40,769 nt of DNA from a virus: the IMG/VR virus record IMGVR_UViG_3300045988_011209, one strand, 5' to 3'. Positions 8,035-23,486 of this stretch are shown here, piece after piece. A program made the translations under genes and the position numbers. Numbering within the stretch: the first letter of the stretch is position 1; each line of letters starts with the position of its first letter. The notes under the pieces are model-generated. The model had not been told where the DNA came from. It searched no databases and was given only the letters and a program-made list of their open reading frames with translations.

Positions 8035-8086
8035 AAAAATATCCATTTAAAGTATATCACATCATTAAGCCGAAAGGGAATAGAAC

Positions 8087-8510: not shown

Positions 8511-9645
8511 GAAACACGCTTTACTAGGTGCATCAAGTAGCGCCAGGTGGCTAGTATGTACTCCTTCAGCAAGACTAGAAGCGATGTTCCCTGATGAACA
8601 ATCGCCGTATGCAGCGGAAGGCACTGTAGCTCACGACCTGGCAGAAGCAATTCTACGGCATAAGCTTGAGGGCAAAAAAGCCCCTAAGCTAGACGACTAC
8701 TCCGCTGAAATGATAGAAGCGGTTAATCGATATGTCGACATTTGCGAAGAAAAGGTAAACGAAGCTCGTGCTCGTTCCTCTGATGCGGAAGCCATGATTG
8801 AAGCACGGCTCGACTTCTCTAGGTGGGTACCTGATGGCTTTGGTACTGGTGACATGGTAATCGTAGCCGATGGCATCCTAGAAGTAATCGACCTAAAGTA
8901 TGGTAAGGGTGTTCCTGTTAGTGCCGTTGAAAACACACAAATGCGACTCTACGCATTAGGTGCTTACGATGTGAACGAGTACTTATACGACATTAAAACT
9001 GTTCGTATGACGATCGTTCAGCCAAGGCTTGATAGCGTATCTACCGACGAAATGCCTATAGCAGACCTGCTTGATTGGGGTGAAGAAATCAAACCAATCG
9101 CGCAACGTGCCTGGGAAGGTGGGGGCGAATGTACGCCTTGCGATTACTGTAACTTCTGTAAAGCACGGCACACCTGCCGAGCATTAGCAGATACTTGCCT
9201 TGATACATTCTATAAGAATGGTGGCAAGCTTAATCAATTACTTACTGACCGTGAAGTATCTGACATTCTAGCGATGAAAGATTTAATCACGAAATGGATT
9301 AAAGGTGTTTACGACTTCGCTTATGAAAAAGCATTATCGGGTGAAAAGCAATGGCCAGGATACAAATTAGTAGAAGGTACATCAAGACGTACCATAACGG
9401 ATCCGGATGCAGCAGCTAAAACATTACTCGATAACGGCTATAAGGAAGAAGACATCTTTAAGCCACGTGAACTCGAAGGTATCACAAACCTACAAAAAGT
9501 ACTCGGTAAAAAGGGCGTTGCCGAATACCTAGAAGCATATATCGAAAAACCGGAGGGCAAGCCTACGCTTGTACCGGAAAGCGATAAACGCCCAGCAATT
9601 AATACAGTTGAAACAATGATGAATGAATTTGAAGATGAGGTATAA
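8503..9645 (+). CDS. PD-(D/E)XK-type nuclease (Cas4/RecB-like fold) with a C-terminal Cys cluster; resembles the DUF2800 family of phage replication modules
   Basis: D...E.K-like stretch GTGDMVIVADGILEVIDLKYGKG, C-terminal CTPCDYCNFCKARHTC, and a position just upstream of the DUF2815-like and PolA genes. Confidence 0.6.
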   Translation: MAKKHALLGASSSARWLVCTPSARLEAMFPDEQSPYAAEGTVAHDLAEAILRHKLEGKKAPKLDDYSAEMIEAVNRYVDICEEKVNEARARSSDAEAMIEARLDFSRWVPDGFGTGDMVIVADGILEVIDLKYGKGVPVSAVENTQMRLYALGAYDVNEYLYDIKTVRMTIVQPRLDSVSTDEMPIADLLDWGEEIKPIAQRAWEGGGECTPCDYCNFCKARHTCRALADTCLDTFYKNGGKLNQLLTDREVSDILAMKDLITKWIKGVYDFAYEKALSGEKQWPGYKLVEGTSRRTITDPDAAAKTLLDNGYKEEDIFKPRELEGITNLQKVLGKKGVAEYLEAYIEKPEGKPTLVPESDKRPAINTVETMMNEFEDEV

Positions 9646-9648
9646 GAG

Positions 9649-11187
9649 ATGAACAAAACTTTAACAACAGCACTAGCAATTTCCGCGTTAGCAGTAAACG
9701 TAGTTGGCGCAACTAGTAATAACACAGTAGGCGGTACAGATAATACTATCTCCGCAAATTCTACAAGCTCCGCAGTATGGGGTTTCCAAAATAACATCGA
9801 CGCTAACAATGCGCTAGCGTTTGGTACTAACAATACTGTAACAGGTGAAAATGGTTTCGCCGGCGGTAATAATGCTACTGCAGCAGGTCGTAACTCCTTC
9901 GCTTTTGGGTCTCACGCCGAAAGCTTGGTGGAGTACACCGTAGCCATCGGTAATCAGGCTCGTGTTTCTAGCTACGATAGTGTAGCTATCGGAAACGGTG
10001 CCTTCGTATCCGGCGAGTCTTCTGTAGTATTAGGCAGAACTAATAATGTTACCGGCGCTGATACTGTGGTTATCGGGGCTAACAACGGCACAGTGGCTGG
10101 CGGCCAAAGTGCCATTGTAGGATACAACAATAAAATCGGTGCTGACAAAGAGCAACTAGTTTTCGGTTCTAACTCCGAATCTAATGGCCAAGGTGCTCTT
10201 ACATTTGGCACTCATGCCAAATCCTTAGCCACTGACGCCGTTGCATTCGGCAACAATACGATTGCTGACCAAGCGAATTCGGTGGCAATCGGAACAAACT
10301 CTGTTACAGATAGCGCCGTTGGCGTTGACGGCATTACTATAAACGGTACTCGCCACGTATTTGCTGGCGAGCAGCCAGCAAGTGTAGTCAGCTTTGGTTC
10401 TAAAGCCCGTGCTGGTGCAGGTGGTGTAACTCAATATAACCGCCAACTCACGAATGTTAGCGCTGGTCAAATCTCCGCTGATTCATTAGACGCTGTGAAC
10501 GGCTCCCAGTTGTTCGCTGCGATTGATGAAATCGAAACAAACGCTAAACAAATTGCTAAAAACAAGCAAAACATTAAAGACGTAGCAATCGGTTTGAACA
10601 TGTTAGGCGACGTGGTGAGTGATCATGAACAAGCTATCGCAGGTAATACTACTGCAATCGCCAACAATACTAACCGCATCAATGGTAATGCATCTGCTAT
10701 CAATTCCCTTGGCCAAAAGGTAACTGCTAATACAGCGGATATTAGAAGCCTTGAACATGTGGCAGACAATCACGAAGGTCGTATCACGACTTTAGAAAAT
10801 CGTTCTTTGGGCTTGTCTAATGACATTAACAACAAAGTCAACAATCTTGGCCAACGTGTTAATAAGTTAGGCGCAAGCTCCGCAGCACTTGCTGGATTGC
10901 ATCCATTAGACTTTAACAGAAATGACAAAGTCAGCTACGCTGTAAGTTACGGCCATTACCGTAACAGTAATGCAGTAGCGCTCGGCGTATTCGCTAGACC
11001 TAATGAACGTATCATGCTTAGCTTTGGTGCTACGCTAGGCGGTGAGAACCAATACACCGTAAACGTAGCATTCAAAACTGGTAAAGGCAGTGACTACATC
11101 GCAGAAGCCAAAGATGCACAAAGCCGTATTTCTAAACTTGAAACACTCGTAAACAAATTAATGACTGAAGTAGAAGCTAACAAATAA
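9649..11187 (+). CDS. YadA-like trimeric autotransporter adhesin: signal peptide, Hep_Hag head repeats, neck, coiled-coil stalk, YadA-type beta-barrel anchor, then a 30-aa coiled-coil tail
   Basis: Signal MNKTLTTALAISALAVNVVGA. Head repeats of the SVAIG.NA.A / NSFAFGS type. Neck motif DAVNGSQLFA. Heptad stalk. Anchor LAGLHPLDFNRNDKVSYAVSYGHYRNSNAVALGVFARPNERIMLSFGATLGGENQYTVNVAFKTGKG, followed by SDYIAEAKDAQSRISKLETLVNKLMTEVEANK. Confidence 0.8.
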   Translation: MNKTLTTALAISALAVNVVGATSNNTVGGTDNTISANSTSSAVWGFQNNIDANNALAFGTNNTVTGENGFAGGNNATAAGRNSFAFGSHAESLVEYTVAIGNQARVSSYDSVAIGNGAFVSGESSVVLGRTNNVTGADTVVIGANNGTVAGGQSAIVGYNNKIGADKEQLVFGSNSESNGQGALTFGTHAKSLATDAVAFGNNTIADQANSVAIGTNSVTDSAVGVDGITINGTRHVFAGEQPASVVSFGSKARAGAGGVTQYNRQLTNVSAGQISADSLDAVNGSQLFAAIDEIETNAKQIAKNKQNIKDVAIGLNMLGDVVSDHEQAIAGNTTAIANNTNRINGNASAINSLGQKVTANTADIRSLEHVADNHEGRITTLENRSLGLSNDINNKVNNLGQRVNKLGASSAALAGLHPLDFNRNDKVSYAVSYGHYRNSNAVALGVFARPNERIMLSFGATLGGENQYTVNVAFKTGKGSDYIAEAKDAQSRISKLETLVNKLMTEVEANK

Positions 11188-11213
11188 TTCATTTAAAGAA
11201 GGAGACCGTAACA

Positions 11214-11774
11214 ATGGCTAAATTAACAACTGGTATCGTAAGACTTTCCTATGCAAACATCGCTCAACCTCGTAAAAACGACGACGGAAAAGCAAAATAC
11301 AGCTCTCAAATCATTATTGATAAAACAGATAAGAAGACAATCAAAGCATTTGAACGTGCGATTGAAGAACTTAAGGCTGATCCAAAAGCAGTAGCTAAAG
11401 TAGAAGGTAAAGCTGCATACCTTAAATTGAATTTACGTGATGGTGATACAGATGAAGCAGTAGCTGACCAACCTGAAACATACGCTGGCAAGTTCTTCAT
11501 CAACGCTAACAGCGATAAACAACCTATCGTATTTACTCGTGACAAAATCAAGATGGACCAATTCGACATTGAAGAAGAAATTTACTCCGGTGTCTACGCG
11601 CAGGTAGCGCTTTCTGTGTTCGCTTACAACTTCAACGGTAAAAAAGGTGTAGGCTTTGGCCTAAATGGTGTTCGTAAAGTTAAAGATGGTGACCGCCTCG
11701 GTGGTGTTCATGTATCTGCTAGCGACTTCGGGGATGACGATTTAGGTGACCTAGACGATGACGATTTAATCTAA
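11214..11774 (+). CDS. DUF2815-like protein, probable phage single-stranded DNA-binding protein (acidic C-terminal tail)
   Basis: N-terminus MAKLTTGIVRLSYANI, which I recall as typical of DUF2815. C-terminus DFGDDDLGDLDDDDLI resembles the acidic tip of SSB proteins. Sits between the nuclease and the DNA polymerase. Confidence 0.6.
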   Translation: MAKLTTGIVRLSYANIAQPRKNDDGKAKYSSQIIIDKTDKKTIKAFERAIEELKADPKAVAKVEGKAAYLKLNLRDGDTDEAVADQPETYAGKFFINANSDKQPIVFTRDKIKMDQFDIEEEIYSGVYAQVALSVFAYNFNGKKGVGFGLNGVRKVKDGDRLGGVHVSASDFGDDDLGDLDDDDLI

Positions 11775-11784
11775 GGAGGCATAT

Positions 11785-13719
11785 ATGGAGCTCAGTATTG
11801 ATGTGGAAACGTATTCTGACTGCCCTATTAAATATGGGGCTCAGCGATACGTTGATGATACAACATTTGAAATACTGCTCTTTGCCTACAGCTTCGATGA
11901 CGAACCGGTCGAAGTAATTGATATGACAAAGGATCCACTGCCCGAAAGGGTGGTGGACGCTTTGTATAACAAGGAAATTACAAAGACCGCATTCAACGCA
12001 GCATTCGAAATGCTTTGTCTAAAAAAGTACTTCCCTGATGCGGACTATACGAACTGGGAATGTACCTCTGTACTAGCGTTATACTGCAGCTTACCGGCAA
12101 GCCTCGATAATGTATCTAAGGCTTTGAAATTAGGAGAAGCCAAGGACACAAGAGGTAAACGCCTAATTCAGTTCTTCTCTGTACCACGTAAGCCTACTAA
12201 GACAAATCCTAAGACACGTAATATGCCCGAGGATGCGCCGGAGAAATGGGCGGAATATATTGAATATAACCGCCAAGACGTAGTGGTAGAGAAGGCAATT
12301 CGTAAACGCTTACTTTCGCTAAAGCCACCTGCTATCGAGCACGAGTACTGGTTACTCGACCAAGATATCAACTGGCTAGGCGTAAAAGTAGATATGGAAC
12401 TCGTCGATGCAGCGCTTGCATGCAATGACGAAATCGTGGAAGAAGCTACCGAGTCATCTAAGATATTAACCGGATTAGAGAATCCAAATAGTACGATGCA
12501 ACTTAAAGAGTGGCTAACTGCAAGACTAGGATATGATCTAGAAACAATGAGAAAAGACGATGTATCAAGCCTCTTAGAACAGGATATCCCCTCTGATGTT
12601 CGCAAGGTACTGCAAAATAGACAGGTACTCGGTAACTCCTCCATCAAAAAATACTTGGCCATGAAAAACGCTGTATGTTCAGATGGTCGCATCCATGGCA
12701 TGCTTCAGTTTTATGGAGCAATGCGAAGTGGACGATGGGCAGGTCGTGTAGTACAACTGCAGAACCTCCCTCGTAACTACTTAGAAGATTTAGACACCGC
12801 TCGGGAAGTTCTTAAGAGTAGAGATGTAGAAATGCTAGACCTACTATATGGAAACCCTGGCGATGTGATTAAGCAACTTATCCGTACTGCTCTTGTAGCA
12901 GAAGAGGGGCACCGATTTATTGTAGCCGATTTCAGTGCTATTGAAGCACGTGTTATAGCTTGGCTAGCTCACGAGAAATGGCGCCAGGATGTATTTGCGC
13001 AAGGTGGTGACATCTACTGTGCATCTGCATCTAGTATGTTCCACGTTCCAGTTGAGAAGCACGGCGTTAACGGTCACCTTCGCCAAAAAGGTAAGGTAGC
13101 AGAATTAGCGCTCGGCTATGGTGGCGGTGTAGGAGCTATGAAGGCGATGGACTCAAAAGGGGAAATTCCTGAAAAGGAGCTACCGGGTATCATCGAAGCT
13201 TGGCGACAAGCTAGCCCACGAATTACGAGATTTTGGAAAGATGCAGACAGCGCAGCAAAGCAAGTAGTGAAAACAGGAGAACCCGTACGAATTAGACAAG
13301 GTAATATTAAATTCTTTAAATCGAAAGGCTTCCTGTTCATCGAATTACCGTCCGGTCGAAGACTTGCCTATGCAAGACCTAGAATTGGGACTAACCGGTT
13401 CGGTAGTGAATCGATTGAGTATGACGGTATGGATCAGGTTAAGAATACATGGGGCAGAGTTGAAACCTATGGCGGAAAGCTCGTCGAAAACATTGTACAG
13501 GCGGTGGCAAGAGATTGCTTAGCAGCATCAATGCTACGGCTTTCTAAAGCAGGATACAAGATTGTTGCCCACATCCACGACGAAGTGGTTATCGAAGCGC
13601 CAATAGGTGAAGGCAGTTTAGAAGAAGTTATAGATATTATGTGTGAACCTGAACCCTGGAATGAAGGGCTCATATTAAACGCAGCAGGGTTTGAGAACCC
13701 TTACTACATGAAGGATTAG
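11785..13719 (+). CDS. family A (Pol I-like) DNA polymerase with a 3'-5' exonuclease domain
   Basis: Exo I motif IDVETYS. Polymerase motif B RQKGKVAELALGYGGG. Motif C HDEVVIE. Confidence 0.85.
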   Translation: MELSIDVETYSDCPIKYGAQRYVDDTTFEILLFAYSFDDEPVEVIDMTKDPLPERVVDALYNKEITKTAFNAAFEMLCLKKYFPDADYTNWECTSVLALYCSLPASLDNVSKALKLGEAKDTRGKRLIQFFSVPRKPTKTNPKTRNMPEDAPEKWAEYIEYNRQDVVVEKAIRKRLLSLKPPAIEHEYWLLDQDINWLGVKVDMELVDAALACNDEIVEEATESSKILTGLENPNSTMQLKEWLTARLGYDLETMRKDDVSSLLEQDIPSDVRKVLQNRQVLGNSSIKKYLAMKNAVCSDGRIHGMLQFYGAMRSGRWAGRVVQLQNLPRNYLEDLDTAREVLKSRDVEMLDLLYGNPGDVIKQLIRTALVAEEGHRFIVADFSAIEARVIAWLAHEKWRQDVFAQGGDIYCASASSMFHVPVEKHGVNGHLRQKGKVAELALGYGGGVGAMKAMDSKGEIPEKELPGIIEAWRQASPRITRFWKDADSAAKQVVKTGEPVRIRQGNIKFFKSKGFLFIELPSGRRLAYARPRIGTNRFGSESIEYDGMDQVKNTWGRVETYGGKLVENIVQAVARDCLAASMLRLSKAGYKIVAHIHDEVVIEAPIGEGSLEEVIDIMCEPEPWNEGLILNAAGFENPYYMKD

Positions 13720-13732
13720 GAGGACAATTCTT

Positions 13733-14062
13733 ATGAAACTCTCAAAACAACAAATTCAACAACAACGCGAAGCAATCGACGGCTTATATGAACTCGTAAA
13801 AGATGCACCAGCTAGTGAGCGTAAAGATACAGCTATGGCGTACTGCGAAGGATGTATTGCTGCTTGCGACCTCGCGCTTAAGATATTAAATGGCAAGAAA
13901 GCAGAAGCTCCTAAGGTGGAAGAACCTGAAACTGCTCCAGTGGTAGAAGAACAATCCGCTGAGAAACCAAAACGTAAACGTAAGAAGAAAGAAGAACCTG
14001 TAGTAGAAGCTCCAGTAGTTGAGGAAACTCCTGAAGAAGATGATTTAGACGATTTGTTATAA
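13733..14062 (+). CDS. hypothetical acidic protein with a Pro/Glu/Lys-rich tail (109 aa)
   Basis: ORF with RBS AGGAGGA. No motif recognised. Confidence 0.45.
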   Translation: MKLSKQQIQQQREAIDGLYELVKDAPASERKDTAMAYCEGCIAACDLALKILNGKKAEAPKVEEPETAPVVEEQSAEKPKRKRKKKEEPVVEAPVVEETPEEDDLDDLL

Positions 14063-14080
14063 GAGAAAGGATAGCGCCTT

Positions 14081-15754
14081 ATGAAGGTCTTATTCAATCT
14101 ACAAGTACAACAGCTGTACGACCTAGTGCGGCGCAATCAAGTGTCACCTTTTAACCCCGCAAGTTATTACCATGTACCTTGCGAACACTCCTTCGCTAAT
14201 CTTTGGCCAATGGAATCTAATGGGTTCGGGATAGTGCCTTGCCGGGAATCAGATGAGTTCTATTGTCCAAAATGCGGTGAGCGGATCAACGCTAAAGGGT
14301 TTACTGCAGAAGTTGGGTATAGCGCCACAGTTCCTTTATCCCTAGACTTATCAATTATAGATAGGGGCGATAAACTGGACGTGCAATTTGAGTACGACAC
14401 GGTATACGCCGACGGAGATAATGGGATGATTTACAAAGGCTATAAATCTCACGTCATCGATGTGGTGCGGTTTGACTTTAAACAAAGAAAAACCTTTATC
14501 ATACTTAAGAAACGCTCACGCAGCGACGTCGTCGAAGAAGCGACAGTCTCCCCGTCGGGCTTTAGTAATTCCCTTTCATCGTTAGATTGGTTCGTAGCCA
14601 CTCCTGACTGCAGACTACATAACTACAGGGATGAGTTAAAATGTTTCGCTAAGGTGCTAAAAGAAGTATTCTTCACGAAATTATCAAAGGTCGTAGGCTA
14701 TAAAGTCAAATCCATTAGACAAGGCGTACAGGTGTCTAACCATTACGGAGCCTTCGATAACCTACTCCATAACTTAGTATGGAAATTACAAGCTCCGGAT
14801 GCGCCGGCTATCAATGACAGCTTAAAGCGTGACTATGACGACTACTATAATCGGAAATTCCCCAACGAGACACTTGGTATGGGTAACGTATTAGAGTTAA
14901 CGATAAAAGGTGATTCCTTTGTAAAGGGCTTAATCAAGGCTCATAACTTACCTGATACCCGATGGGTTCGTCGGTTATTACACGATAGACCGTTCTTCTA
15001 TGCGAAGATCATCAAAGTTATGGCTACGTTATTTAAGAACAAGGACTATCAAAAGGCGATGGTCGATGTTATCAAAGATAACGCTGATAATACAAGTTAT
15101 ATTCAGTCCTGGCCATTATGGCGTGATGACCGTGATTTATCTGTCATTCGTAAATTTGTTAATATCCTTAGCCATCAATACGGTGAGCGCCAGGCGTTCT
15201 TATTCATTAGAAATGCGCCTTCCTATCACGATGTCAGAGATACAGCTAGTATGTATTTTGAGTTATCGAGAAGTCGCCGTAAAGAGGTTTGGGGTAGTCG
15301 CATCCAGGTGCGTAACCTACATGACACAATCTCGAGAATGCAAAAGTTCGACAAAGTGGAAGACGAAATCGTGCAGCAGCGTAAAGCACATCGCGCTTTA
15401 GCTGACATGGTTAATGGTTACCGCTTCATGGCTATCGGTTCTACACACGGCATCATTGATATGGGGATACAGCTTAATAACTGTGTAAGCTCCTATATCA
15501 AGAAGGTGAAAGCAGAAACGTGTGCTATCGTAGGCGTCTATAAATGTAACGAGCCAGTAGCGTGTATCGAAGTTAATCCGAAAAGTGATGCGGACGACTT
15601 TGTAGAAATACACCAGGCTAAACTTAAAAACAATCGTGGCGTGTACGAAGACCACGATATCAACGGAGCTGTAACGCAGTGGGTAACCTCTCACGGCTTA
15701 TGCGTTCCGGCGTATGTACGAGATATCCAGTTTGCGAAGGGAGGAGCGATGTAA
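14081..15754 (+). CDS. large hypothetical protein with an N-terminal Cys4 zinc-ribbon (CEH...CPKC), located inside the replication module
   Basis: A 557-aa ORF with a good RBS, sitting between PolA and the primase. Function is unknown. Confidence 0.5.
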   Translation: MKVLFNLQVQQLYDLVRRNQVSPFNPASYYHVPCEHSFANLWPMESNGFGIVPCRESDEFYCPKCGERINAKGFTAEVGYSATVPLSLDLSIIDRGDKLDVQFEYDTVYADGDNGMIYKGYKSHVIDVVRFDFKQRKTFIILKKRSRSDVVEEATVSPSGFSNSLSSLDWFVATPDCRLHNYRDELKCFAKVLKEVFFTKLSKVVGYKVKSIRQGVQVSNHYGAFDNLLHNLVWKLQAPDAPAINDSLKRDYDDYYNRKFPNETLGMGNVLELTIKGDSFVKGLIKAHNLPDTRWVRRLLHDRPFFYAKIIKVMATLFKNKDYQKAMVDVIKDNADNTSYIQSWPLWRDDRDLSVIRKFVNILSHQYGERQAFLFIRNAPSYHDVRDTASMYFELSRSRRKEVWGSRIQVRNLHDTISRMQKFDKVEDEIVQQRKAHRALADMVNGYRFMAIGSTHGIIDMGIQLNNCVSSYIKKVKAETCAIVGVYKCNEPVACIEVNPKSDADDFVEIHQAKLKNNRGVYEDHDINGAVTQWVTSHGLCVPAYVRDIQFAKGGAM

Positions 15755-15755
15755 T

Positions 15756-18170
15756 ATGGATACTACTATCATCATAGCTACGGGCAAAAGTCGCTCCGCC
15801 CGTAGCTGGACGTCTAAGAAAATGACTTGGAGTGAATTGGTCAGTAAATTGGCCGAGCCAACTGTAACGAATGAAACGGCTGCTGAATACGCCAAGATGT
15901 CTAAGGCTGATCAAGGCCGAAAGAAAGACGTCGGCGGTTTTGTAGGTGGCTATATTCCTAATAAAGGTAGACGGATTAGAGGGGCTGTCAAAGAGCGGTA
16001 CTTGATTACTCTTGATGCGGATAACCCTGGCGAAGATTTTATCGTAGACCTAGATATGGAATTAGGCGGTATGGAGTACGTACTTTATAGTACGCACAGC
16101 CACACAGCTGACAATCCTCGCTATCGTGTCATTATCCCAGTAGATAGACCTATGACACCGGATGAGTATCAAGCAGTCTCGAGACGAATTGCAGATAACA
16201 TCGGTATTGAGTTCTTTGACCCGTCAACGCATCAGGCTGAACGTCTTATGTATTGGCCTAGCCATCCTAAAGACGTCGAATACGTGTATCAGCATAGCGA
16301 AGGTTCGCTTGTTTCAGTAGATACCTATTTGAGTACCTACAGAGACTGGCGTGATACGAGCCTTTGGCCAACATCGGAAAAGGAATCACAAATTCGCCTT
16401 GATGCGGCTAAGAAGCAAGGCAACCCGTTAGAGAAAAAAGGCCTTATCGGTGCTTTTTGCCGATGCTACAGTATCACGGAAGCTATTCAAAAGTTTCTCC
16501 CTGAAGTCTATGAGCCTACGGCCGTAGAGGACCGGTACACATACGTAGCCGGTAGCTCAGTAGGCGGGTTAGTGATTTACGATAACGATACTTTTGCTTA
16601 CTCCAACCATGCGACTGACCCTATCAGCTGTAAGCTCGTCAATGCGTTTGACCTTGTCCGGATCCACTTATTCGGAGATAAGGACCCAGCAGATGAGACC
16701 GCCGTCACCAAATTACCAAGCTACAAAGACATGATTGACTTTGTCAACGAAGACGGCGCAGCACCAATCCTGCTCGATAAAGAACGTATGGCGGATATGG
16801 AGTTTGAGGATATCACGGACGGTGACGAGGACTTCTTATCAAAGTTAAAGCGCGATAAAAACGGTACCCCTGAATCTGATGTGTACAACTGCCTCGTAGT
16901 ACTTAAACAGGACCCTGCATTAAAAGGTAAAATTCGACTCGACGAATTCGCGCACCGCTTAGTCGTGATTGACGACCTTCCGTGGCGCGATAAGGACGAA
17001 ACCCCTTACTGGACAGATACCGACGATGCGTGCTTACGTAACTACTTTGCTACGAAATACCTTATCAAGGGTAAAGGCATCATCGATGATGCGCTCCAGG
17101 AAGTAACGCAAGATAATAAATTCCATCCTGTGCGTGAGTATCTAAAGGAGCTAACTTGGGATGGTGAATGTAGACTTGATACTCTCTTCATCGATTACAT
17201 CGGTGCTGAGGATACCGAATACATTCGAGCGGTTACTCGTAAATGGATGTGTGGTGCGGTAGCCCGTGTTATGGATCCAGGCGTTAAGTTTGATACGGCG
17301 ATTGTGTTATATGGTTCTCAAGGTTTAGGTAAGTCCCTTATCTTGGAGCGGTTAGGCCGTAAATGGTTTAACAACTCACTCGTTGATATCAAAACCAAAG
17401 ATGCCCTAGAACAAATTCAAGGGTCTTGGATAGTCGAACTTGCCGAACTTGCACCGACCTACAAGAACGATAATGAAATCGTAAAAGCTTTTATCAGCCG
17501 TACCTCTGACCGGTTCCGCTCTCCTTATGGCAGACGCACCGAAGAGTATCCTCGCCAGTGTGTATTCGCAGGATCCACTAATAATCTCATGTTCCTTAAA
17601 GACCGTACCGGTAACCGCCGATTCTGGCCAATCACTGGTGATAAGGACCGTAAGACAAAGAACTCCTGGGACTTGTCAAAGGGTGAAATTGACCAATTAT
17701 GGGCAGAAGCGTTCGTGTATTGGTCTGAAGGTGAGCCATTAGTTCTCGAAGGAGCACTTGAAGAAGAAGCCCTTAGAATCCAATTATCCCATACAGAAGG
17801 TGGTGAACTCGTAGGTCTTATTGAAGAGTACCTCGACATGCTACTTCCTGAAGATTGGGAAACAATGGATATCTACGATAGACGAGATTATGTCGCTAAT
17901 TATGGCGATGACGATCATTGTGGTTCAGTGCAGCGGGAACGAGTGTGTGCCCTTGAGATATGGTGTGAAGTGCTTGGCGGGGACAGGAAGAACCTGCAGA
18001 ACGCAAAAGCAAGAGAAATCATTGACATTTTGCAGTCAACGCCAGGATGGAACCCGTACACAAAAGGAACAGGAAAGGCACGTTTTGGCAGGCTTTACGG
18101 TCCGCAAAGAGCGTTTATAAAGGAAGGTACAGACCTCCTATCAATGTATAAACGAAATCATGGTAAGTAG
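15756..18170 (+). CDS. primase-helicase (VirE/D5-N-like primase domain plus a P-loop SF3 helicase domain)
   Basis: Start chosen at the ATG at 15756 with RBS GGGAGGAG; the track ORF starts at 15714 inside the previous gene. Walker A GSQGLGKS. Overall size and layout match P4/D5-type phage primases. Confidence 0.8.
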   Translation: MDTTIIIATGKSRSARSWTSKKMTWSELVSKLAEPTVTNETAAEYAKMSKADQGRKKDVGGFVGGYIPNKGRRIRGAVKERYLITLDADNPGEDFIVDLDMELGGMEYVLYSTHSHTADNPRYRVIIPVDRPMTPDEYQAVSRRIADNIGIEFFDPSTHQAERLMYWPSHPKDVEYVYQHSEGSLVSVDTYLSTYRDWRDTSLWPTSEKESQIRLDAAKKQGNPLEKKGLIGAFCRCYSITEAIQKFLPEVYEPTAVEDRYTYVAGSSVGGLVIYDNDTFAYSNHATDPISCKLVNAFDLVRIHLFGDKDPADETAVTKLPSYKDMIDFVNEDGAAPILLDKERMADMEFEDITDGDEDFLSKLKRDKNGTPESDVYNCLVVLKQDPALKGKIRLDEFAHRLVVIDDLPWRDKDETPYWTDTDDACLRNYFATKYLIKGKGIIDDALQEVTQDNKFHPVREYLKELTWDGECRLDTLFIDYIGAEDTEYIRAVTRKWMCGAVARVMDPGVKFDTAIVLYGSQGLGKSLILERLGRKWFNNSLVDIKTKDALEQIQGSWIVELAELAPTYKNDNEIVKAFISRTSDRFRSPYGRRTEEYPRQCVFAGSTNNLMFLKDRTGNRRFWPITGDKDRKTKNSWDLSKGEIDQLWAEAFVYWSEGEPLVLEGALEEEALRIQLSHTEGGELVGLIEEYLDMLLPEDWETMDIYDRRDYVANYGDDDHCGSVQRERVCALEIWCEVLGGDRKNLQNAKAREIIDILQSTPGWNPYTKGTGKARFGRLYGPQRAFIKEGTDLLSMYKRNHGK

Positions 18171-18577
18171 GTGTGTCCAATTATTTGAGGTGTGTCCAAT
18201 TATTTAATAGGTATGAATGTTCGTAAAAATAAATATTCAAGCCTATACATCGATACATTTTGATATAGTGTAATAATTGGACACACTAAACACGCTTGGA
18301 CACACTAATCGGACACTGGTAAAAAGCAGATAACTGCTAATCTAAATAGTAAAGTGTATCTAGTGTGTCCAATTATTTATATAAAAATAAAAAAATAAAT
18401 ATATGAATAAATGGGTGTATATATATAAGCGTAAAAAACGCAAATACGCGTATATATATATATTGGAAAAAAATTGGGCACTTTGGACACACCCCCCCCC
18501 ATAAATCCAGTATTGGTGCGGGTTCATAGGCGTGTCCGAGGGTGTGTCCAATTGTTAAATGAGAACGAGGTGAGAAC
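18171..18577. repeat. iteron-rich non-coding region (candidate replication origin) with an AT-rich tract and a C9 homopolymer
   Basis: At least eight copies of GTGTCC(AATTATT) in both orientations: 18171..18189, 18189..18206, 18271..18287 (inverted), 18297..18306, 18310..18316, 18363..18378, 18484..18491 and 18541..18556. An AT-rich stretch spans 18378..18478. A C9 homopolymer spans 18492..18500. Confidence 0.6.
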
Positions 18578-18910
18578 GTGGAAAAAGACATCGAGCGATG
18601 GTTAGGAAATCAACTCAAAAAATTGGGGTGCATATATATGAAATTCGTGTCACCTGGAAATGATGGTGTACCGGATCGGATTATTGTACTTCCTGGAGGC
18701 GGTGTTATATTCGTCGAATTAAAGGGTACAAATGGTAAGCTAATGGCTAACCAACGGGTACAGATTTCACGATTACGTAAACAAGGTGCATTAGTATTCG
18801 TAGTAACCGGGATGTCTGATGCCAAGTTATTTGTTGAAGATATGGAAAGGGCGATACATGGACTTTCATCCACACGAGTATCAAAGCATTGCAATACAAC
18901 GAATCATTGA
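18578..18910 (+). CDS. VRR-NUC domain nuclease
   Basis: GTG start with RBS AGGTGAG. Motif region GVPDRIIVLPGGGVIFVELKG is of the PD-(D/E)XK / VRR-NUC type. Confidence 0.65.
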   Translation: MEKDIERWLGNQLKKLGCIYMKFVSPGNDGVPDRIIVLPGGGVIFVELKGTNGKLMANQRVQISRLRKQGALVFVVTGMSDAKLFVEDMERAIHGLSSTRVSKHCNTTNH

Positions 18911-20225
18911 CAATACCCATTACGGATTGTTACTGGATATGGGGTTAGGTAAAACCATATCTACACTGATTGCGATTGACCGGCTTATATATGATTACTT
19001 TGACATTAAAAAAGTATTACTCATCGCACCTAAGAAGGTAGCAGAATCTACATGGGCCCAAGAAACGCAAAAATGGAGTGCTACACGGCGTTTAACGGTG
19101 GCTAAGGTGTTAGGTTCCGAGAAAGAACGCATACACGCCTTAGAGAGTGAATCTGACGTTTATGTGATAAATCGTGAAAATGTGCAATGGCTATATGAAT
19201 ACTATCATAAGAAAAAATCGTTCCCTTTCGATATGTTAGTCATTGATGAGAGTTCTTCGTTTAAGAACCCACAGGCTAAACGGTTTAAGGCAATTCGTAA
19301 ACTTAGACCACTATTTAAGCGTATTGTCATTTTAACAGGTACACCGGCACCAAATACCTTACTTGATATTTGGGCGCAGATGTATCTACTAGATGGCGGT
19401 GAACGACTGGGTAAGACGATTACTGAATATCGTACCCGGTATTTTACACCGGACAAAACAAACGGGCACGTCGTGTATAGCTACCGACTACTGCCTGGAG
19501 GTGATAGAGCGATATTCAGCAAGATGCAAGATATCTGTATGAGCTTAAAAGCGAAGGACTATCTTACACTACCTGAACGTATCGAAAACGTTATCACAGT
19601 AGAGATGAACCCGAAAGAATGGGAACTCTATAAACAGATGGAGCGCGAGCACGTGCTTAGTTTGGCCGGTGATGACGACGTAAGTGCACTTAATGCAGCA
19701 GCACTCGCCGGTAAATTGTTACAACTGGCGAATGGATCCATTTATAACGATGATGGTGAAATTGTAGTCGTCCATAACGAGAAGATTGAACGGCTGAAAG
19801 AATTGGTAGAAACGAACGAAGGAAAACCGATGTTAGTGTTTTACAACTTCAAACATGACCTTCAGTCAATCAAAGAAGCGTTCCCGAAAGCTGTCGAGCT
19901 TAAAACCGATGATGATGTAGCTGAGTGGAACAAAGGCAACATTCAAATGTTACTGGCACATCCCGCATCAGCAGGGTACGGCTTAAACCTTCAAGCCGGT
20001 GGCAATATCATCGTATGGTATGGGCTAACTTGGAGCCTTGAACAGTATCAACAAGCGAACGCAAGGTTACACAGGCAAGGGCAAACACAACCCGTGATTA
20101 TCCACCATCTAGTCACTAAGGGCACGATGGACGAGCAAGTCATGAAGGCCCTAGAACGTAAAGAAGCGGGGCAAGATGCCCTCTTAGAAGCTATTAAATA
20201 TCGTAAAGAATTGTATAAGGAGTAG
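18858..20225 (+). CDS. SNF2-family (DEAD/DEAH-like) helicase
   Basis: Start chosen at the ATG at 18858 (MDFHPHEYQ); the track ORF starts at 18819. Walker A LLDMGLGKT, DExx box MLVIDESSSF, and a C-terminal helicase domain. Confidence 0.8.
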   Translation: MDFHPHEYQSIAIQRIIDNTHYGLLLDMGLGKTISTLIAIDRLIYDYFDIKKVLLIAPKKVAESTWAQETQKWSATRRLTVAKVLGSEKERIHALESESDVYVINRENVQWLYEYYHKKKSFPFDMLVIDESSSFKNPQAKRFKAIRKLRPLFKRIVILTGTPAPNTLLDIWAQMYLLDGGERLGKTITEYRTRYFTPDKTNGHVVYSYRLLPGGDRAIFSKMQDICMSLKAKDYLTLPERIENVITVEMNPKEWELYKQMEREHVLSLAGDDDVSALNAAALAGKLLQLANGSIYNDDGEIVVVHNEKIERLKELVETNEGKPMLVFYNFKHDLQSIKEAFPKAVELKTDDDVAEWNKGNIQMLLAHPASAGYGLNLQAGGNIIVWYGLTWSLEQYQQANARLHRQGQTQPVIIHHLVTKGTMDEQVMKALERKEAGQDALLEAIKYRKELYKE

Positions 20226-20229
20226 AACT

Positions 20230-20745
20230 ATGCAAAAGAAATGTAGACGATGCGGAGACACATTTACAGTAAAAACACACGAGGATTATTGCCCAGAGTG
20301 TGAAAAAGTAATGACGCCACCTGGTGCAGGCGTGAGTAAAGAGTTAACCTGTGAAGGATGTAACACAACATTCGTTCACACAAAAGAAAAAGCGCAAGGT
20401 CGTTGGCCTAAATATTGTCCGGAGTGTCTACCTAAGTATTCGAAAGTACCTAAGAAGAAAGATGTGCAGACTATCGCTGAAAAGGTAGTGCAAACTATCG
20501 AGGAGCAGGAAGTTAAGACCGTTGAATTGCCTAAGCAAGAAGATGTTATCAATCATCCTTCGCATTACACACGAGGTAAGATTGAGGTTATCGATTTTAT
20601 CGAGGATCAACAGCTTCCATATCATCTAGGTAATGTTATCAAGTACATCGCAAGAGCAGGGTATAAAGGCGATAAACTCGAAGACCTAAAAAAAGCAAGA
20701 TGGTATTTGGATAGATACATCAAAGGGGTAATGCAGCATGAGTGA
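20230..20745 (+). CDS. zinc-ribbon protein with a C-terminal domain resembling DUF3310 (phage-associated)
   Basis: Four CxxC pairs at the N-terminus. C-terminus HPSHY...IEVIDFI...LGNVIKYIARAGYKGDKLEDLKKARWYL matches what I recall of DUF3310. Confidence 0.5.
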   Translation: MQKKCRRCGDTFTVKTHEDYCPECEKVMTPPGAGVSKELTCEGCNTTFVHTKEKAQGRWPKYCPECLPKYSKVPKKKDVQTIAEKVVQTIEEQEVKTVELPKQEDVINHPSHYTRGKIEVIDFIEDQQLPYHLGNVIKYIARAGYKGDKLEDLKKARWYLDRYIKGVMQHE

Positions 20746-21166
20746 CTATAAAGAAAAGGCGACTGCGTATCTGCAAGATATTAAGTTGATAGCTATTCGT
20801 ATTCAATCGCTACGGCAGGATATTCGCAAACTGCAGTATGACATCATCACCTTATCGGCGATTGATTATTCCAAAGACCGAGTATCAGGGGGAGGTACTC
20901 CAGTAGGTCTTGAAGGTGATGTGGCTAGACTTGTTGATACAGTAGATACCAAAAAACGGGAGATAGCAAAGCTTATTGCTAAAAGGGAAGAAGCTAGGGC
21001 TTTGATTGAACAGATAGAATGTATACCAGGGCGTATCATATTATCGCAAGAATACATAAATGGGGCATTCCCTAAGAAAGTACAAGCGATGATATATTAC
21101 GAAAAAAGCAGTTACTTCAATTTAAAAAATAAAGCGTTAAACGAATTAGGGGAGCTCCTTTCATAG
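20738..21166 (+). CDS. putative late-gene transcriptional activator (ArpU/RinA/sigma-region-4-like C-terminus)
   Basis: 142 aa. C-terminal ILSQEYINGAFPKKVQAMIYYEKSSYFNLKNKALNELGEL resembles a sigma-70 region-4-type HTH. The gene lies immediately upstream of the phased repeats, a promoter and the terminase genes. Confidence 0.35.
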   Translation: MSDYKEKATAYLQDIKLIAIRIQSLRQDIRKLQYDIITLSAIDYSKDRVSGGGTPVGLEGDVARLVDTVDTKKREIAKLIAKREEARALIEQIECIPGRIILSQEYINGAFPKKVQAMIYYEKSSYFNLKNKALNELGELLS

Positions 21167-21206
21167 TGGAGTACTTTGGAGTGTTTTGGAGTATTTTGGA
21201 CTTAAA
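21167..21206 (+). repeat. four tandem 10-bp direct repeats (TGGAGTACTT, TGGAGTGTTT, TGGAGTATTT, TGGACTTAAA) just upstream of a -10 TATAAT at 21225..21230
   Basis: Read directly. The repeats are phased one helical turn apart. The downstream promoter lacks a good -35 and instead has TTGACA only 3 nt from the -10. Confidence 0.5.
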
Positions 21207-21289
21207 TGAACCGACTTGACATAGTATAATGTAGTTGTGAAAGGTGTCATTAGTCATCTAACACAAATCCTCTCTTATACACAACTCAG

Positions 21290-21325
21290 CAAAAAGCACG
21301 GTGATGACGACCGTGCTTTTTGTTG
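21290..21325 (+). terminator. rho-independent terminator
   Basis: AAAAAGCACGGT-GATGACGA-CCGTGCTTTTTGTT. Confidence 0.6.
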
Positions 21326-21604
21326 TATGTAGCATCATAAATACATGGGCCCGTATTTATGAGGCAGGCGATCGCGTAAGCTAAGGAGAGGGAATATGTA
21401 AAAATGAAATTTACCGCACAATGAAACCAGGGTGAGCCGAATATGTCCACATACATTTCAAAGCTTATATATTATGAGCTTGCCCTGTATCGTTGTACGC
21501 TGACATCTGATGACTAGAACTATGAGTCCTCCGATAACTATATAGCCTAACAACAACCAACTAGTCATCGGATTTGAGCGTACAAAGTATTAAGGTGAAA
21601 AGGT

Positions 21605-21799
21605 ATGAGCACAGAAGTCAAATGTATTAAACGTAAATGCCTGAATAACAAAAACGGCGTTTGCACAGCAAAACTAATTGAATATGACGGCCTGTGCCAA
21701 ACGTATATCACACACGACCACGCACACAAAAGTAATTGTGGATTATGCACTCGTTCGCACGGCCGATTTAAGAGAAACAGCCGTGATGTATTAAGATAG
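21605..21799 (+). CDS. small Cys/His-rich protein (64 aa), first gene of the packaging operon
   Basis: RBS AAGGTGAAAAGGT. Translation MSTEVKCIKRKCLNNKNGVCTAKLIEYDGLCQTYITHDHAHKSNCGLCTRSHGRF. Confidence 0.45.
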   Translation: MSTEVKCIKRKCLNNKNGVCTAKLIEYDGLCQTYITHDHAHKSNCGLCTRSHGRFKRNSRDVLR

Positions 21800-21814
21800 C
21801 CAGGAGGTGAGATA

Positions 21815-22258
21815 GTGGCGGCATTAGCAAATAAACGACATGAAAAATTTTGTCATGAGTACATCAAGGATATGAATGCGAAACAGGCTGCTATTCGAAC
21901 TGGTTACTCTGAGAAATCTGCTGAGTCTCAATCTTCAAGACTGTTAAGGAATGACAAGGTTAAAAAACGGGTTGCCGAGCTCCGTGACGCCTACTTCAAT
22001 GAAAACATCATGACGGCTCAGCAGGTCGAGTATGAGTTAACAAGGATTGCCCTGGGGCTCTCAAATGAAAAGCAAGTGGTTATCGAAGGTACTGGGGAAG
22101 GATGTTCCGAAGCTCGTATTATCGATAAACCGCCGGACGAGAAGTCGAGGTTAAAAGCCCTGGAGCTTATGGCTAAACGTCATAGAATACTCAGCGGTGA
22201 TACAACTATCGATATTAAGCCTGTACTCATCGTAGGTGGTGACGATATTGCAGACTAA
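21815..22258 (+). CDS. terS: terminase small subunit (Terminase_2-like)
   Basis: GTG start with RBS AGGAGGTGA. Motifs FCHEYIKDMNAKQAAIRTGYSEKSAESQSSRLLRNDKVKKRV. Confidence 0.8.
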   Translation: MAALANKRHEKFCHEYIKDMNAKQAAIRTGYSEKSAESQSSRLLRNDKVKKRVAELRDAYFNENIMTAQQVEYELTRIALGLSNEKQVVIEGTGEGCSEARIIDKPPDEKSRLKALELMAKRHRILSGDTTIDIKPVLIVGGDDIAD

Positions 22259-23486
22259 TAGAGTGTACTTGCCGGATATCGTAGGCAAGGGATACGGTGC
22301 TTTTTGGCGGTTCAAAGGCCGTTATAAAGTAGTCAAGGGCAGTCGTGCCAGTAAGAAGTCCTCTACGCAGTCTCTTAAAGTCATTATGGAGATAATGGAG
22401 AACCCGTGCATAAACTGGCTAGTCGTTCGTAAGACAGAACGGACTTTGCGTGACAGTTGTTTCGCGCAACTCAAATGGGCTATGCGCCAGTTAAAGGTGG
22501 AGCGGTATTTCAAATGTTCCGTATCTCCACTTGAGATAACGTATATCCCGACCGGACAGAAAATCTTATTTCGCGGTCTCGATGATCCTTTAAAGGTAAC
22601 GTCCATTACTGTTGAAGTTGGCGCTTTGTGTAGACTGTGGATTGAAGAAGCCTACGAGATTATGAGCGAGGACGCATTCAACAGGCTGGACGAATCTATT
22701 CGAGGCCAGTTACCCGACGGTATGTATCACCAGGTAGTGCTTACGTTTAACCCGTGGTCAGATAGGCACTGGTTAAAGAAACGCTTTTTTGACGAACCCA
22801 GTGAAAACGTATTGGCCATGACTACGAATTACCTGTGTAACGAGTTCCTGAGTGATTCTGACTTAGTACTGTTCGAGGAAATGAAGAAGAACCCTAAGCG
22901 GTATCAAGTAGCCGGCTTAGGTAACTGGGGCGTTGTTGAAGGACTGGTTTACGAAAACTGGAAAGAACAAGAATTTAGTGTTGATTATATTAGAGGTCAA
23001 ACCGGTATCAAGTCCGCGTTTGGCCTTGATTTTGGTTATACGGTAGACCCTACAGCGCTAGTGTGCATGCTAGTTGATATGGAACATAAGAAAATCTACA
23101 TATTCGATGAGCTGTACGAAACAGGACTTACGAATCAACAATTAGCGTCCCGTATCATTGATATGGGTTACGCAAAAGAGAAGATTCGAGCCGATAGTGC
23201 CGAGCCTAAATCCATTGAGGAATTGTACCAGGCAGGGCTAAAAGGTATGACCAGGGCACGCAAGGGTAAAGACAGCATATTAAATGGTATTCAGAGGATA
23301 CAAGACTACGAATTAATCGTTCATCCAAGATGCGTTAATGTGCTGCGAGAGTTATCCACGTACCAATGGGCGAAGGATCGCTTTGAGAAATACACAGGGA
23401 AACCTGAAGACGAAAATAACCATGCTATGGATGCTATGCGGTATGGTTTGGAAGATATTAATGTAGAAAGGTGGTCGTTTGATTGA
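22236..23486 (+). CDS. terL: terminase large subunit (PBSX/XtmB-like)
   Basis: Degenerate Walker A region VVKGSRASKKSS. Size (416 aa) and position follow TerS. Acidic nuclease-like C-terminal half. Confidence 0.8.
   Translation: MVTILQTNRVYLPDIVGKGYGAFWRFKGRYKVVKGSRASKKSSTQSLKVIMEIMENPCINWLVVRKTERTLRDSCFAQLKWAMRQLKVERYFKCSVSPLEITYIPTGQKILFRGLDDPLKVTSITVEVGALCRLWIEEAYEIMSEDAFNRLDESIRGQLPDGMYHQVVLTFNPWSDRHWLKKRFFDEPSENVLAMTTNYLCNEFLSDSDLVLFEEMKKNPKRYQVAGLGNWGVVEGLVYENWKEQEFSVDYIRGQTGIKSAFGLDFGYTVDPTALVCMLVDMEHKKIYIFDELYETGLTNQQLASRIIDMGYAKEKIRADSAEPKSIEELYQAGLKGMTRARKGKDSILNGIQRIQDYELIVHPRCVNVLRELSTYQWAKDRFEKYTGKPEDENNHAMDAMRYGLEDINVERWSFD

What the first reader, a model, noticed from the sequence alone, without database searches (positions are those of the whole stretch)
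18171..18577. Candidate replication origin: iteron array in both orientations, AT-rich unwinding tract and a C9 homopolymer between the primase-helicase and VRR-NUC genes
The roughly 400-bp ORF-free gap contains at least eight copies of GTGTGTCCAATTATT. There are two tandem copies at an 18-bp period at 18171..18206, an inverted copy at 18271..18287, half-sites TTGGACACAC and CGGACAC at 18297..18316, and further copies at 18363, 18484 and 18541.

The repeats flank a 100-bp A+T-rich run at 18378..18478 that contains TATATATATATATT. A 9-C homopolymer at 18492..18500 directly abuts one repeat.

Iterons plus a DNA-unwinding element next to a D5/VirE primase-helicase is the classic origin layout. 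The poly-C tract is a potential slipped-strand hot spot, or a polymerase or sequencing problem site.
Basis: partly seen in the sequence, partly recalled or inferred. Interest (0 to 1): 0.6.

Follow-up and report, generated by a model that had tools for sequence, protein, structure and literature searches.

The report
SaPI-type replication origin, Veillonella prophage
The repeat-filled gap after the primase-helicase gene of this Veillonella prophage is very probably the phage's replication origin, built like the known origins of staphylococcal pathogenicity islands, so it is a well-supported but ordinary kind of element in a little-studied host.

Summary
The 407-nt gap at 18171-18577 holds ten sites of the core GTG(T/C)CC(A/G)A in both orientations. 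The exact core occurs nowhere else in the 40.8 kb. The sites flank the most A+T-rich stretch of the window, and a C9 run abuts one site.

The interpretation as an origin is supported.
- The upstream protein (residues 373-813) is a clear homologue of SaPI1 Rep (PDB 7pds, E 9e-92). That protein is a self-loading SF3 helicase-initiator. Its C-terminal winged helix binds iterons placed just downstream of rep, on both sides of an A+T-rich centre.
- About 120 related Veillonella phage loci carry the same layout with four different iteron sequences at the same positions.
- Iteron type tracks, without exception, eight residues in the last 35 residues of the helicase. Nothing else within 6.5-23.5 kb tracks it.
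- Iteron cores vary about tenfold less than neighbouring synonymous sites.
- Twelve phages of other Firmicute genera have the same unannotated gap, each with its own repeats.

The C-run varies from C6 to C9, is interrupted in a few relatives, and is absent in one class, so it is incidental.

Verdict: a new member of a known kind. No replication has been measured.

The parts
15714..18170 (+). Fused primase-helicase-initiator (PriRep), an 818-aa ORF. The real start is probably Met15 at 15756.
   Evidence: Pfam VapE-like domain at residues 477-693, E 4e-78. PHROG families annotated as primase or helicase. Residues 373-813 match PDB 7pds, SaPI1 Rep, at E 9e-92. Database gene calls are mostly 804-807 aa.
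17757..18167 (+). C-terminal domain (residues 682-818), with a predicted winged-helix fold
   Evidence: AlphaFold2 model with pLDDT 88. The best Foldseek matches are the six chains of 7pds (probability 1.0), followed by weak winged-helix DNA-binding domains. The domain is found at the C-terminus of 967 protein clusters.
18060..18161 (+). Codons 783-816, the segment that co-varies with iteron type. It covers the predicted hairpin tip, the neighbouring strands and the last helix.
   Evidence: The only columns that fully separate the two classes among 818 residues are 785, 786, 789, 797, 807, 809, 812 and 816. They are mapped on the model.
18171..18185 (+). Iteron 1 (GTGTGTCCAATTATT); begins at the base after the stop codon
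18190..18204 (+). Iteron 2; tandem with iteron 1 at a 19-nt period
18242..18268 (.). Conserved element CCTATACATCGATACATTTTGATATAG. It is largely shared by classes 1 and 2 and only partly by classes 3 and 4. Its role is unknown.
   Evidence: It overlaps the only plus-strand promoter-like hit.
18272..18286 (-). Iteron 3 (full 15-mer, inverted)
18296..18305 (-). Iteron 4 (10-nt core TTGGACACAC)
18309..18316 (-). Iteron 5 (variant core GTGTCCGA)
18363..18377 (+). Iteron 6 (full 15-mer), pointing into the A+T-rich tract
18378..18473 (.). A+T-rich centre, the presumed unwinding element. It contains the lowest-G+C 60-nt and 100-nt windows of the window. It is largely conserved in classes 1-3 (class 3 lacks 11 nt of the left half) and differs in class 4.
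18418..18460 (.). Imperfect palindrome (16-nt arms, 11-nt loop) containing ACGCGTA, in the right half of the A+T-rich tract
   Evidence: Inverted repeat I5. As single-stranded DNA it folds at -9.4 kcal/mol, z -4.2. A CGCGTA motif recurs at the same relative place in 8 of 13 phage gaps.
18474..18481 (-). Iteron 7 (degenerate core GTGCCCAA)
18483..18492 (-). Iteron 8 (10-nt core), pointing into the A+T-rich tract
18492..18500 (.). C9 homopolymer. It is variable and not part of the conserved design.
   Evidence: Among 41 class-1 sequences the run is C6-C9 (modal C8) in 37 and interrupted in 4. Class 2 has ACAACCCCG at this place.
18532..18539 (+). Iteron 9 (variant core GTGTCCGA)
18542..18556 (+). 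Iteron 10 (GTGTGTCCAATTGTT, one mismatch); marks the right edge of the class-linked block
18578..18910 (+). VRR-NUC nuclease gene, the first gene after the origin. It is not linked to iteron type.
   Evidence: Pfam VRR_NUC. No class association.

Best explanation
The gap is the lytic replication origin of a Veillonella prophage. It forms one functional unit with the gene upstream.

That gene encodes one polypeptide with three parts:
- an N-terminal primase-like region;
- an SF3 (VapE/D5-type) helicase;
- a C-terminal winged-helix domain.

Proposed steps, all inferred from the SaPI Rep model:
1. The winged helix of hexameric PriRep binds the GTGTCC(A/G)A iterons on both sides of the A+T-rich tract. 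The innermost iterons, 18363 (+) and 18474/18483 (-), point inward.
2. Binding melts the 18378-18473 tract without ATP.
3. Two hexamers load themselves onto the opened DNA.
4. The primase part makes primers.
5. The phage PolA (11785-13719) and the Gp2.5-like single-strand-binding protein (11214-11774) extend them.

Shown here:
- the anatomy of the gap;
- homology of the protein to a proven initiator-helicase;
- purifying selection on the iterons;
- exclusive co-inheritance of iteron type with the tail of the C-terminal domain.
For: **Homology.** Residues 373-813 match SaPI1 Rep (PDB 7pds) at E 9e-92. The AlphaFold2 model of residues 682-818 (pLDDT 88) matches the 7pds C-terminal domain best.

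**Layout.** PMC9371898 describes the SaPI origin as follows. It has 6-12 iterons immediately downstream of rep, with an A+T-rich centre. At least two iterons lie on each side, pointing in opposite directions. The winged helix of the C-terminal domain recognises them. [quoted passage not shown] The window has six sites to the left and four to the right of the lowest-G+C tract, in both orientations, starting at the base after the stop codon.

**Concerted change.** About 120 related loci fall into classes with GTGTCC or GTTGCC cores and none has a mixed array. A third class has GTGTCCGATT and a fourth GTAGCC. The cores occupy the same alignment columns with the same orientation.

**Exclusive linkage.** Only eight residues, all between 785 and 816, fully separate class 1 from class 2 among 73 unique proteins. 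At the DNA level, class-linked positions lie only at 17864-18559 within the tested span 6.5-23.5 kb. No gene's presence or absence tracks class.

**Selection.** Within class 1, the mean minor-allele fraction is 0.017 in iteron cores. It is 0.062 in the rest of the gap and 0.166-0.169 at third codon positions of the flanking genes (Mann-Whitney p 5e-7).

**Generality.** Twelve phages with 44-48% identical PriRep proteins share the layout. They come from seven cultured Firmicute host genera (Enterococcus, Staphylococcus, Clostridium, Clostridioides, Listeria, Streptococcus, Brevibacillus) and from gut metagenomes. All have the same unannotated gap, most of them directly before VRR-NUC/SNF2 genes. 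Each gap carries its own repeat in both orientations.
Against: - No replication, binding or melting has been measured for this element or any close relative.
- The eight class-specific residues lie directly next to the iterons on the DNA. Physical linkage alone could explain part of the association. The contrast between the sharp right edge and the extension into the gene suggests more than linkage but does not prove it.
- The repeat unit (8-15 nt) is longer than the 5-6 nt SaPI iterons.
- The primase assignment of the N-terminal third rests only on PHROG family names. No Pfam family matches.
- One distant relative (L299) has no such gap.
Confidence: 0.85

Rival explanations
1. The repeats are operators of a separate transcription factor, or sites of autoregulation, that control the VRR-NUC/SNF2 operon. 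On this view they are not an origin.
For: The gap lies directly upstream of the VRR-NUC and SNF2 genes. One weak promoter-like site with an extended -10 lies at 18250-18277 and overlaps iteron 3. Origin-binding initiators often also repress transcription (general knowledge).
Against: Promoter-like sites are not enriched: 4 found against 4.3 in shuffles. No other gene within 6.5-23.5 kb co-varies with repeat type, either in sequence or in presence. The only co-varying protein segment belongs to a homologue of a proven initiator-helicase. Ten sites spread over 390 nt around an extremely A+T-rich centre are not a typical operator layout.
Confidence: 0.07
2. The gap is a packaging (pac/cos) or partition site. 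The clustering of contig ends would then reflect physical genome ends.
For: At least 8 of 80 IMG/VR contigs that carry the PriRep gene end inside the gap. Several end at the equivalent of 18383-18387.
Against: The end positions are spread over 18219-18387 rather than falling on one point. The terminase genes lie 3.2 kb downstream at 21815-23486, and pac sites are usually in or near terS (general knowledge). None of the proteins scanned matched a ParA or ParB family; genes outside 7974-23486 were not scanned. Repeats plus a very A+T-rich, palindromic tract are a common cause of assembly breaks.
Confidence: 0.03
3. The gap is a functionless module junction or recombination hot spot, and its repeats are remnants of exchanges.
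For: The flanks recombine freely. The downstream gene occurs in roughly 94%, 84% and 75% identity forms independently of iteron class. The class-linked block ends sharply at 18559.
Against: The gap is more conserved than synonymous sites, and iteron cores most of all. All sites change together and stay in register across four classes. The layout persists across phages from at least seven Firmicute host genera and from gut metagenomes, with unrelated repeat sequences.
Confidence: 0.03

Closest known systems
SaPI/PICI pri-rep-ori replicons (SaPI1 Rep, SaPI5 PriRep5, SaPIbov1; PMC9371898, PMC6092414)
   Same: - An SF3 helicase-initiator with a C-terminal winged helix. Sequence homology to SaPI1 Rep is E 9e-92.
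- Primase fused to the helicase, as in SaPI5.
- Origin immediately downstream of the rep stop codon.
- Two iteron sets in opposite orientations around an A+T-rich centre.
- Iteron sequence differs between elements.
   Different: - The host element is a complete 40-kb prophage of Veillonella (Negativicutes), with its own terminase and PolA. It is not a satellite island of a Gram-positive coccus.
- The repeat unit is 8-15 nt rather than 5-6 nt.
- A conserved palindrome with CGCGTA sits inside the A+T-rich tract.
- No function has been tested.
Satellite phage P4 alpha protein with ori and crr (from my own knowledge; P4 alpha and its ori are mentioned in PMC6092414)
   Same: One polypeptide combines primase, a D5-like helicase and a C-terminal domain that binds short repeats at the origin.
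   Different: - P4 needs a second repeat cluster (crr) about 4.5 kb away. Here the exact core occurs nowhere else in the 40.8 kb window.
- The P4 ori is not directly downstream of the alpha gene.
- No sequence relationship was tested here.
Lambdoid phage O protein and ori-lambda iterons (from my own knowledge; see also PMC7466680, listed)
   Same: An initiator and its iterons lie next to an A+T-rich region. Related phages carry matched pairs of initiator DNA-binding domain and iterons.
   Different: - The lambda origin lies inside the O gene.
- O is not a helicase and recruits host DnaB through P.
- The protein families are unrelated.

Membership tests
SaPI/PICI-type Rep-ori replicon | The initiator is an SF3 (or MCM-like) helicase homologous to SaPI Rep proteins | tested here: met
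   phmmer against the PDB: 7pds (SaPI1 Rep), E 9e-92, covering residues 373-813. Pfam VapE-like domain, E 4e-78.
SaPI/PICI-type Rep-ori replicon | C-terminal domain with a winged helix that reads the iterons | tested here: inconclusive
   The fold is met: an AlphaFold2 model (pLDDT 88) shows helix-helix-hairpin, and its best structural match is the 7pds C-terminal domain. DNA binding was not measured. It is supported only by co-variation of residues 785-816 with iteron type.
SaPI/PICI-type Rep-ori replicon | Origin immediately downstream of the rep open reading frame | tested here: met
   The first iteron starts at 18171, the base after the stop codon at 18168-18170.
SaPI/PICI-type Rep-ori replicon | Two iteron sets flanking an A+T-rich centre, with at least two iterons on each side in opposite directions | tested here: met
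   Six sites to the left (+ + - - - +) and four to the right (- - + +) of the 18378-18473 tract, which contains the lowest-G+C windows of the window.
SaPI/PICI-type Rep-ori replicon | Iterons are short penta- or hexanucleotides | tested here: not met
   The shared core is 8 nt, GTG(T/C)CC(A/G)A, and five sites extend to 15 nt. The conserved skeleton across classes is TGT-NN-CC-R-ATT. This is a difference of degree, not of design.
SaPI/PICI-type Rep-ori replicon | The Rep plus ori segment drives autonomous replication; binding and melting are independent of ATP | not testable with these tools
   Needs cloning, gel-shift assays and permanganate footprinting.
SaPI/PICI (phage-inducible chromosomal island) as an element | A small (~15 kb) satellite that lacks structural and lysis genes and depends on a helper phage | tested here: not met
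   The window carries PolA, terS and terL. A long run of same-strand ORFs follows, up to about 39.6 kb. Related contigs are about 40 kb. It is a full prophage that uses the same type of replicon.
DnaA-dependent origin | Cluster of DnaA boxes (TTATCCACA) | tested here: not met
   No match with up to one mismatch inside 18171-18577.

The most novel reading that the evidence does not exclude
Two linked ideas go beyond 'another SaPI-like origin'.

1. Co-circulating Veillonella prophages may exchange a compact specificity cassette. The cassette would be the tip of the winged-helix hairpin plus all iterons, and it would define separate replicon specificity groups. The group would be set mainly by a two-base centre in the iteron, TGT-NN-CC-R-ATT. 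The centre is GT, TG or AG, paired with residues 785/786/797 as G-T-P, S-V-V or G-S-V.

2. The PriRep-to-VRR-NUC gap may be a widespread origin of Firmicute temperate phages that is never annotated. It may have a common core next to the unwinding tract: a short CGCGTA-containing palindrome, found in 8 of 13 gaps. That core could be read by the conserved primase or helicase parts rather than by the variable winged helix.
Probability: 0.35. Interest if true: 0.55.

Novelty: new member of a known kind. Interest (0 to 1): 0.35.

Why it matters
- **Tools for Veillonella.** The result gives a precise, testable origin and initiator for a very common human-associated Veillonella prophage family. My literature searches returned no paper describing a replication origin for Veillonella phages. 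An initiator-plus-origin cassette of about 3 kb could serve as a replicon for genetic tools in this genus.
- **Annotation.** The same unannotated gap in phages of Enterococcus, Staphylococcus, Clostridium, Clostridioides, Listeria, Streptococcus and Brevibacillus could be annotated as a candidate origin.
- **Specificity.** The natural class switches offer a small set of residues and bases for working out how this winged helix reads DNA.

Tried and rejected
- **Megablast** of 15714-20225 against 50,697 phage records found no match, so no close annotated relative exists.
- **Rfam** at permissive threshold on 17500-19200 gave only a chance miRNA hit (E 0.93). There are no tRNAs in the window. A non-coding RNA gene is therefore rejected.
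- **DnaA boxes**: none in the gap.
- **Promoter and terminator scan**: promoters are not enriched. The terminator-like hits on the minus strand are the iteron and palindrome inverted repeats.
- **GC skew**: no informative turn, because almost all genes lie on one strand.
The whole protein was used instead.
- **Primary SaPI origin papers** (PMC1964853, PMC3804134) are not held. Their content is cited only as summarised in PMC9371898.
- **Literature searches** for phage origins downstream of VapE/VirE primase genes returned nothing directly relevant.
- **Pfam** on the N-terminal 372 residues and on the C-terminal domain found no family.
- **Contig ends in the gap** were considered as possible physical genome ends. 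This was rejected because their positions are scattered.

Full report
**The observation**

The gap 18171-18577 (407 nt, 34% G+C) lies between the stop codon of an 818-codon ORF (15714-18170) and the GTG start of a VRR-NUC gene (18578-18910).

The 15-mer GTGTGTCCAATTATT occurs exactly four times. These are at + 18171, + 18190, - 18272 and + 18363. It occurs once more with one mismatch at + 18542.

Shorter cores add five sites:
- 18296-18305, minus strand
- 18309-18316, minus strand
- 18474-18481, minus strand
- 18483-18492, minus strand
- 18532-18539, plus strand

This gives ten sites of GTG(T/C)CC(A/G)A.

GTGTCCRA has nine exact matches and all lie in the gap. Shuffles give 1.55 for the whole 40.8 kb, and none of 100 shuffles reaches nine. 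The tandem pair has a 19-nt period, not 18.

The tract 18378-18478 is 19.8% G+C and holds the lowest-G+C 60-nt and 100-nt windows of the window. C9 at 18492-18500 is the only G/C run of at least 7 nt or A/T run of at least 9 nt.

**Context**

The window is a prophage. Pfam and PHROG matches give this gene order:
- exonuclease (8503-9645)
- Gp2.5-like single-strand-binding protein (11214-11774)
- family A DNA polymerase (11785-13719)
- PcfJ-like protein (14081-15754)
- the primase-helicase (15714-18170)
- the gap
- VRR-NUC, then an SNF2 helicase
- DUF3310 and DUF1492 proteins
- terminase small and large subunits (21815-23486)

A long run of same-strand ORFs follows the terminase genes, up to about 39.6 kb. 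I did not scan those ORFs against any family library.

All seven relatives found in species-representative genomes are Veillonella. They include V. caviae DSM 20738 and Veillonella sp. KGMB01456. Close relatives are abundant: 156 stretches in IMG/VR encode a relative, and at least 7,959 protein clusters match.

**What the upstream protein is**

Residues 477-693 are a VapE-like domain. The N-terminal third matches only PHROG families annotated as primase and no Pfam family.

Against the PDB, residues 373-813 match chain 7pds_A at E 9e-92. That entry is the SaPI1 Rep hexamer. The paper describing it is PMC9371898, and it states the following:
- SaPI Reps are self-loading SF3 or MCM-like helicases that also act as initiators.
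- They do so through a winged-helix domain in the C-terminal domain, which recognises iterons.
- Six to twelve iterons lie immediately downstream of rep.
- An A+T-rich region sits near the centre of the origin.
- At least two iterons on each side point in opposite directions.
- In SaPI5 the primase and Rep are fused.

[quoted passage not shown] It also says that Pri-Rep-ori segments drive plasmid replication.

I modelled residues 682-818 with 38 diverse homologues. The model has mean pLDDT 88. In protein numbering it shows:
- helices at 746-752 and 763-775
- a hairpin at 779-781 and 788-791
- a strand at 796-803
- a last helix at 808-816

Its only confident structural matches are the six 7pds chains. 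Weak matches to winged-helix DNA-binding domains such as CodY, Fur/PerR, forkhead and PadR follow.

**Comparative evidence: concerted change**

In the related IMG/VR loci the gap keeps its length, about 403-408 nt in most. It comes in two main forms. One has about nine GTGTCC cores and no GTTGCC cores. The other has about nine GTTGCC cores and no GTGTCC cores. None of about 120 loci is mixed.

Rarer forms have GTGTCCGATT (L118, L102, L111) or GTAGCC (L204 and four more loci).

In a multiple alignment, the cores of all four forms fall in the same columns with the same orientation. The A+T-rich centre and its palindrome are almost identical in classes 1-3. The skeleton TGT-NN-CC-R-ATT is constant. 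The centre NN is GT, TG or AG.

**Comparative evidence: exclusive linkage**

Among 73 unique full-length proteins (45 of class 1 and 28 of class 2), only eight alignment columns fully separate the classes. They are residues 785, 786, 789, 797, 807, 809, 812 and 816.

In the model:
- 785 and 786 sit in the loop at the tip of the predicted hairpin;
- 789 and 797 sit in the adjoining strands;
- 807 lies just before the last helix, and 809, 812 and 816 lie within it.

At the DNA level, positions with class association of at least 0.7 lie only between 17864 and 18559. This was first seen over 11.7-22 kb in 71 loci. It was then confirmed over 6.5-23.5 kb in 48 loci.

No block's presence or absence tracks class. 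The association stops abruptly after the last iteron, and the VRR-NUC gene assorts independently.

Adjacency alone could produce some linkage. However, the block extends into the DNA-binding domain on one side and ends at the last repeat on the other. There are also no chimeras. Both facts fit a unit kept together by function.

**Comparative evidence: selection and generality**

Within class 1 (39 unique sequences), the mean minor-allele fraction is:

| Positions | Mean minor-allele fraction |
|---|---|
| Iteron cores | 0.017 |
| A+T-rich centre | 0.033 |
| Rest of the gap | 0.062 |
| Third codon positions of the two flanking genes | 0.166-0.169 |

Outside Veillonella, the nearest annotated phages have 44-48% identical proteins. 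In twelve of them the primase-helicase gene is followed by a 217-421 nt stretch. It has no annotation in some records and only tiny hypothetical ORFs in others. In most it ends at a VRR-NUC/SNF2 pair. No record annotates an origin there.

The twelve phages are phiFL4A, vB_SauS_JS02, phiCT453A, LWP01, Javan100, CWou-2020b, Dulem virus 37, phiCDKH02, and the Monoglobales, Dorea and Coprococcus phages and Emery.

Each gap has its own repeat in both orientations, followed by an A+T-rich stretch. Examples:
- TGGATAC, ten times, in phiFL4A
- TGTTGCATCA, seven times, in JS02
- GTCAACA, eight times, in LWP01 and nine times in phiCDKH02
- CAACCGA, eleven times, in Dulem virus 37

One distant relative (L299) lacks the gap, so the layout is common but not universal.

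**Mechanism**

The best-supported reading is the SaPI model applied to a complete phage:
1. PriRep hexamers bind the iterons through the winged helix.
2. They open the A+T-rich tract.
3. They load themselves in both directions.
4. They prime synthesis for the phage polymerase.

Anatomy, homology, selection and co-inheritance are shown here. Binding, melting, loading and priming are inferred. There are no DnaA boxes, which fits an origin that does not need the host initiator.

**The poly-C tract**

Among 41 class-1 sequences the run is C9 in 11, C8 in 19, C7 in 2 and C6 in 5. It is interrupted in 4. Class 2 has ACAACCCCG at this place. The run is therefore a variable spacer next to iteron 8 and not a designed part of the origin. 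I cannot tell from assemblies whether the variation reflects slippage or sequencing error.

**Rivals**

- **A separate transcription factor** is unlikely. No regulator co-varies, and promoter-like sites are not enriched. PriRep binding could still affect read-through transcription.
- **A packaging site** is unlikely. Contig ends in the gap are scattered, and the terminase genes lie 3 kb away.
- **A functionless junction** is contradicted by the conservation pattern.
- **An RNA gene** has no support.

**Verdict**

This is a new member of a known kind: a SaPI/PICI-type rep-ori unit in a Veillonella prophage. My confidence is about 0.85 and interest is modest.

Two leads may go further. One is the compact specificity cassette, with its two-base iteron centre. 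The other is a CGCGTA-containing palindrome beside the unwinding tract. It recurs in 8 of 13 gaps from different phages and is 15-fold enriched over the flanks, but I chose the pattern post hoc.

Noticed in passing
window 18219-18387 equivalents; loci L015, L019, L024, L042, L054 and others: At least 8 of 80 IMG/VR contigs carrying the primase-helicase gene end inside the 407-nt gap. Several end at the border between iteron 6 and the A+T-rich tract (18383-18387). This is probably an assembly break caused by the repeats, the palindrome or low coverage. It is unlikely to be a physical end, because the positions vary.
   Followed up: partly
window 18445-18451 (ACGCGTA within the palindrome 18418-18460); same relative place in L204, L210, L211, L287, L290, L291, L292: A CGCGTA-containing short palindrome sits just right of the A+T-rich tract in 8 of 13 PriRep-downstream gaps from different phages. 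It is 15-fold denser there than in the flanking coding DNA. I chose the pattern after looking, so it needs an unbiased motif search.
   Followed up: partly
window 18242-18268: CCTATACATCGATACATTTTGATATAG lies between the left iteron sets. It is largely conserved in classes 1 and 2, whatever the iteron type, and only partly in classes 3 and 4. It overlaps the only plus-strand promoter-like hit. Its role is unknown.
   Followed up: no
window 15714-15756: The primase-helicase ORF overlaps the PcfJ-like gene (which ends at 15754) by 41 nt if read from the first ATG. Public gene calls are mostly 804-807 aa, and the PHROG and PDB alignments start at residues 14-16. The real start is therefore probably Met15 at 15756. 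Residue numbers in this report use the 818-aa ORF.
   Followed up: partly
L202 (V. caviae DSM 20738) and L204 (Veillonella sp. KGMB01456): Two cultured strains carry relatives of this prophage, with class-2 and class-4 origins respectively. They could be used directly for induction experiments.
   Followed up: no
L299:3855 onward: A 44% identical primase-helicase in an IMG/VR contig is followed directly by coding-looking sequence, with no repeat-bearing gap. The origin of that phage, if it is of this type, must lie elsewhere.
   Followed up: no
window 18819-18910: The SNF2 ORF, read from its first ATG, overlaps the VRR-NUC gene by 92 nt. In relatives the VRR-NUC start shifts between two nearby GTG codons because of a 1-nt indel. 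Start assignments of both genes are uncertain.
   Followed up: no
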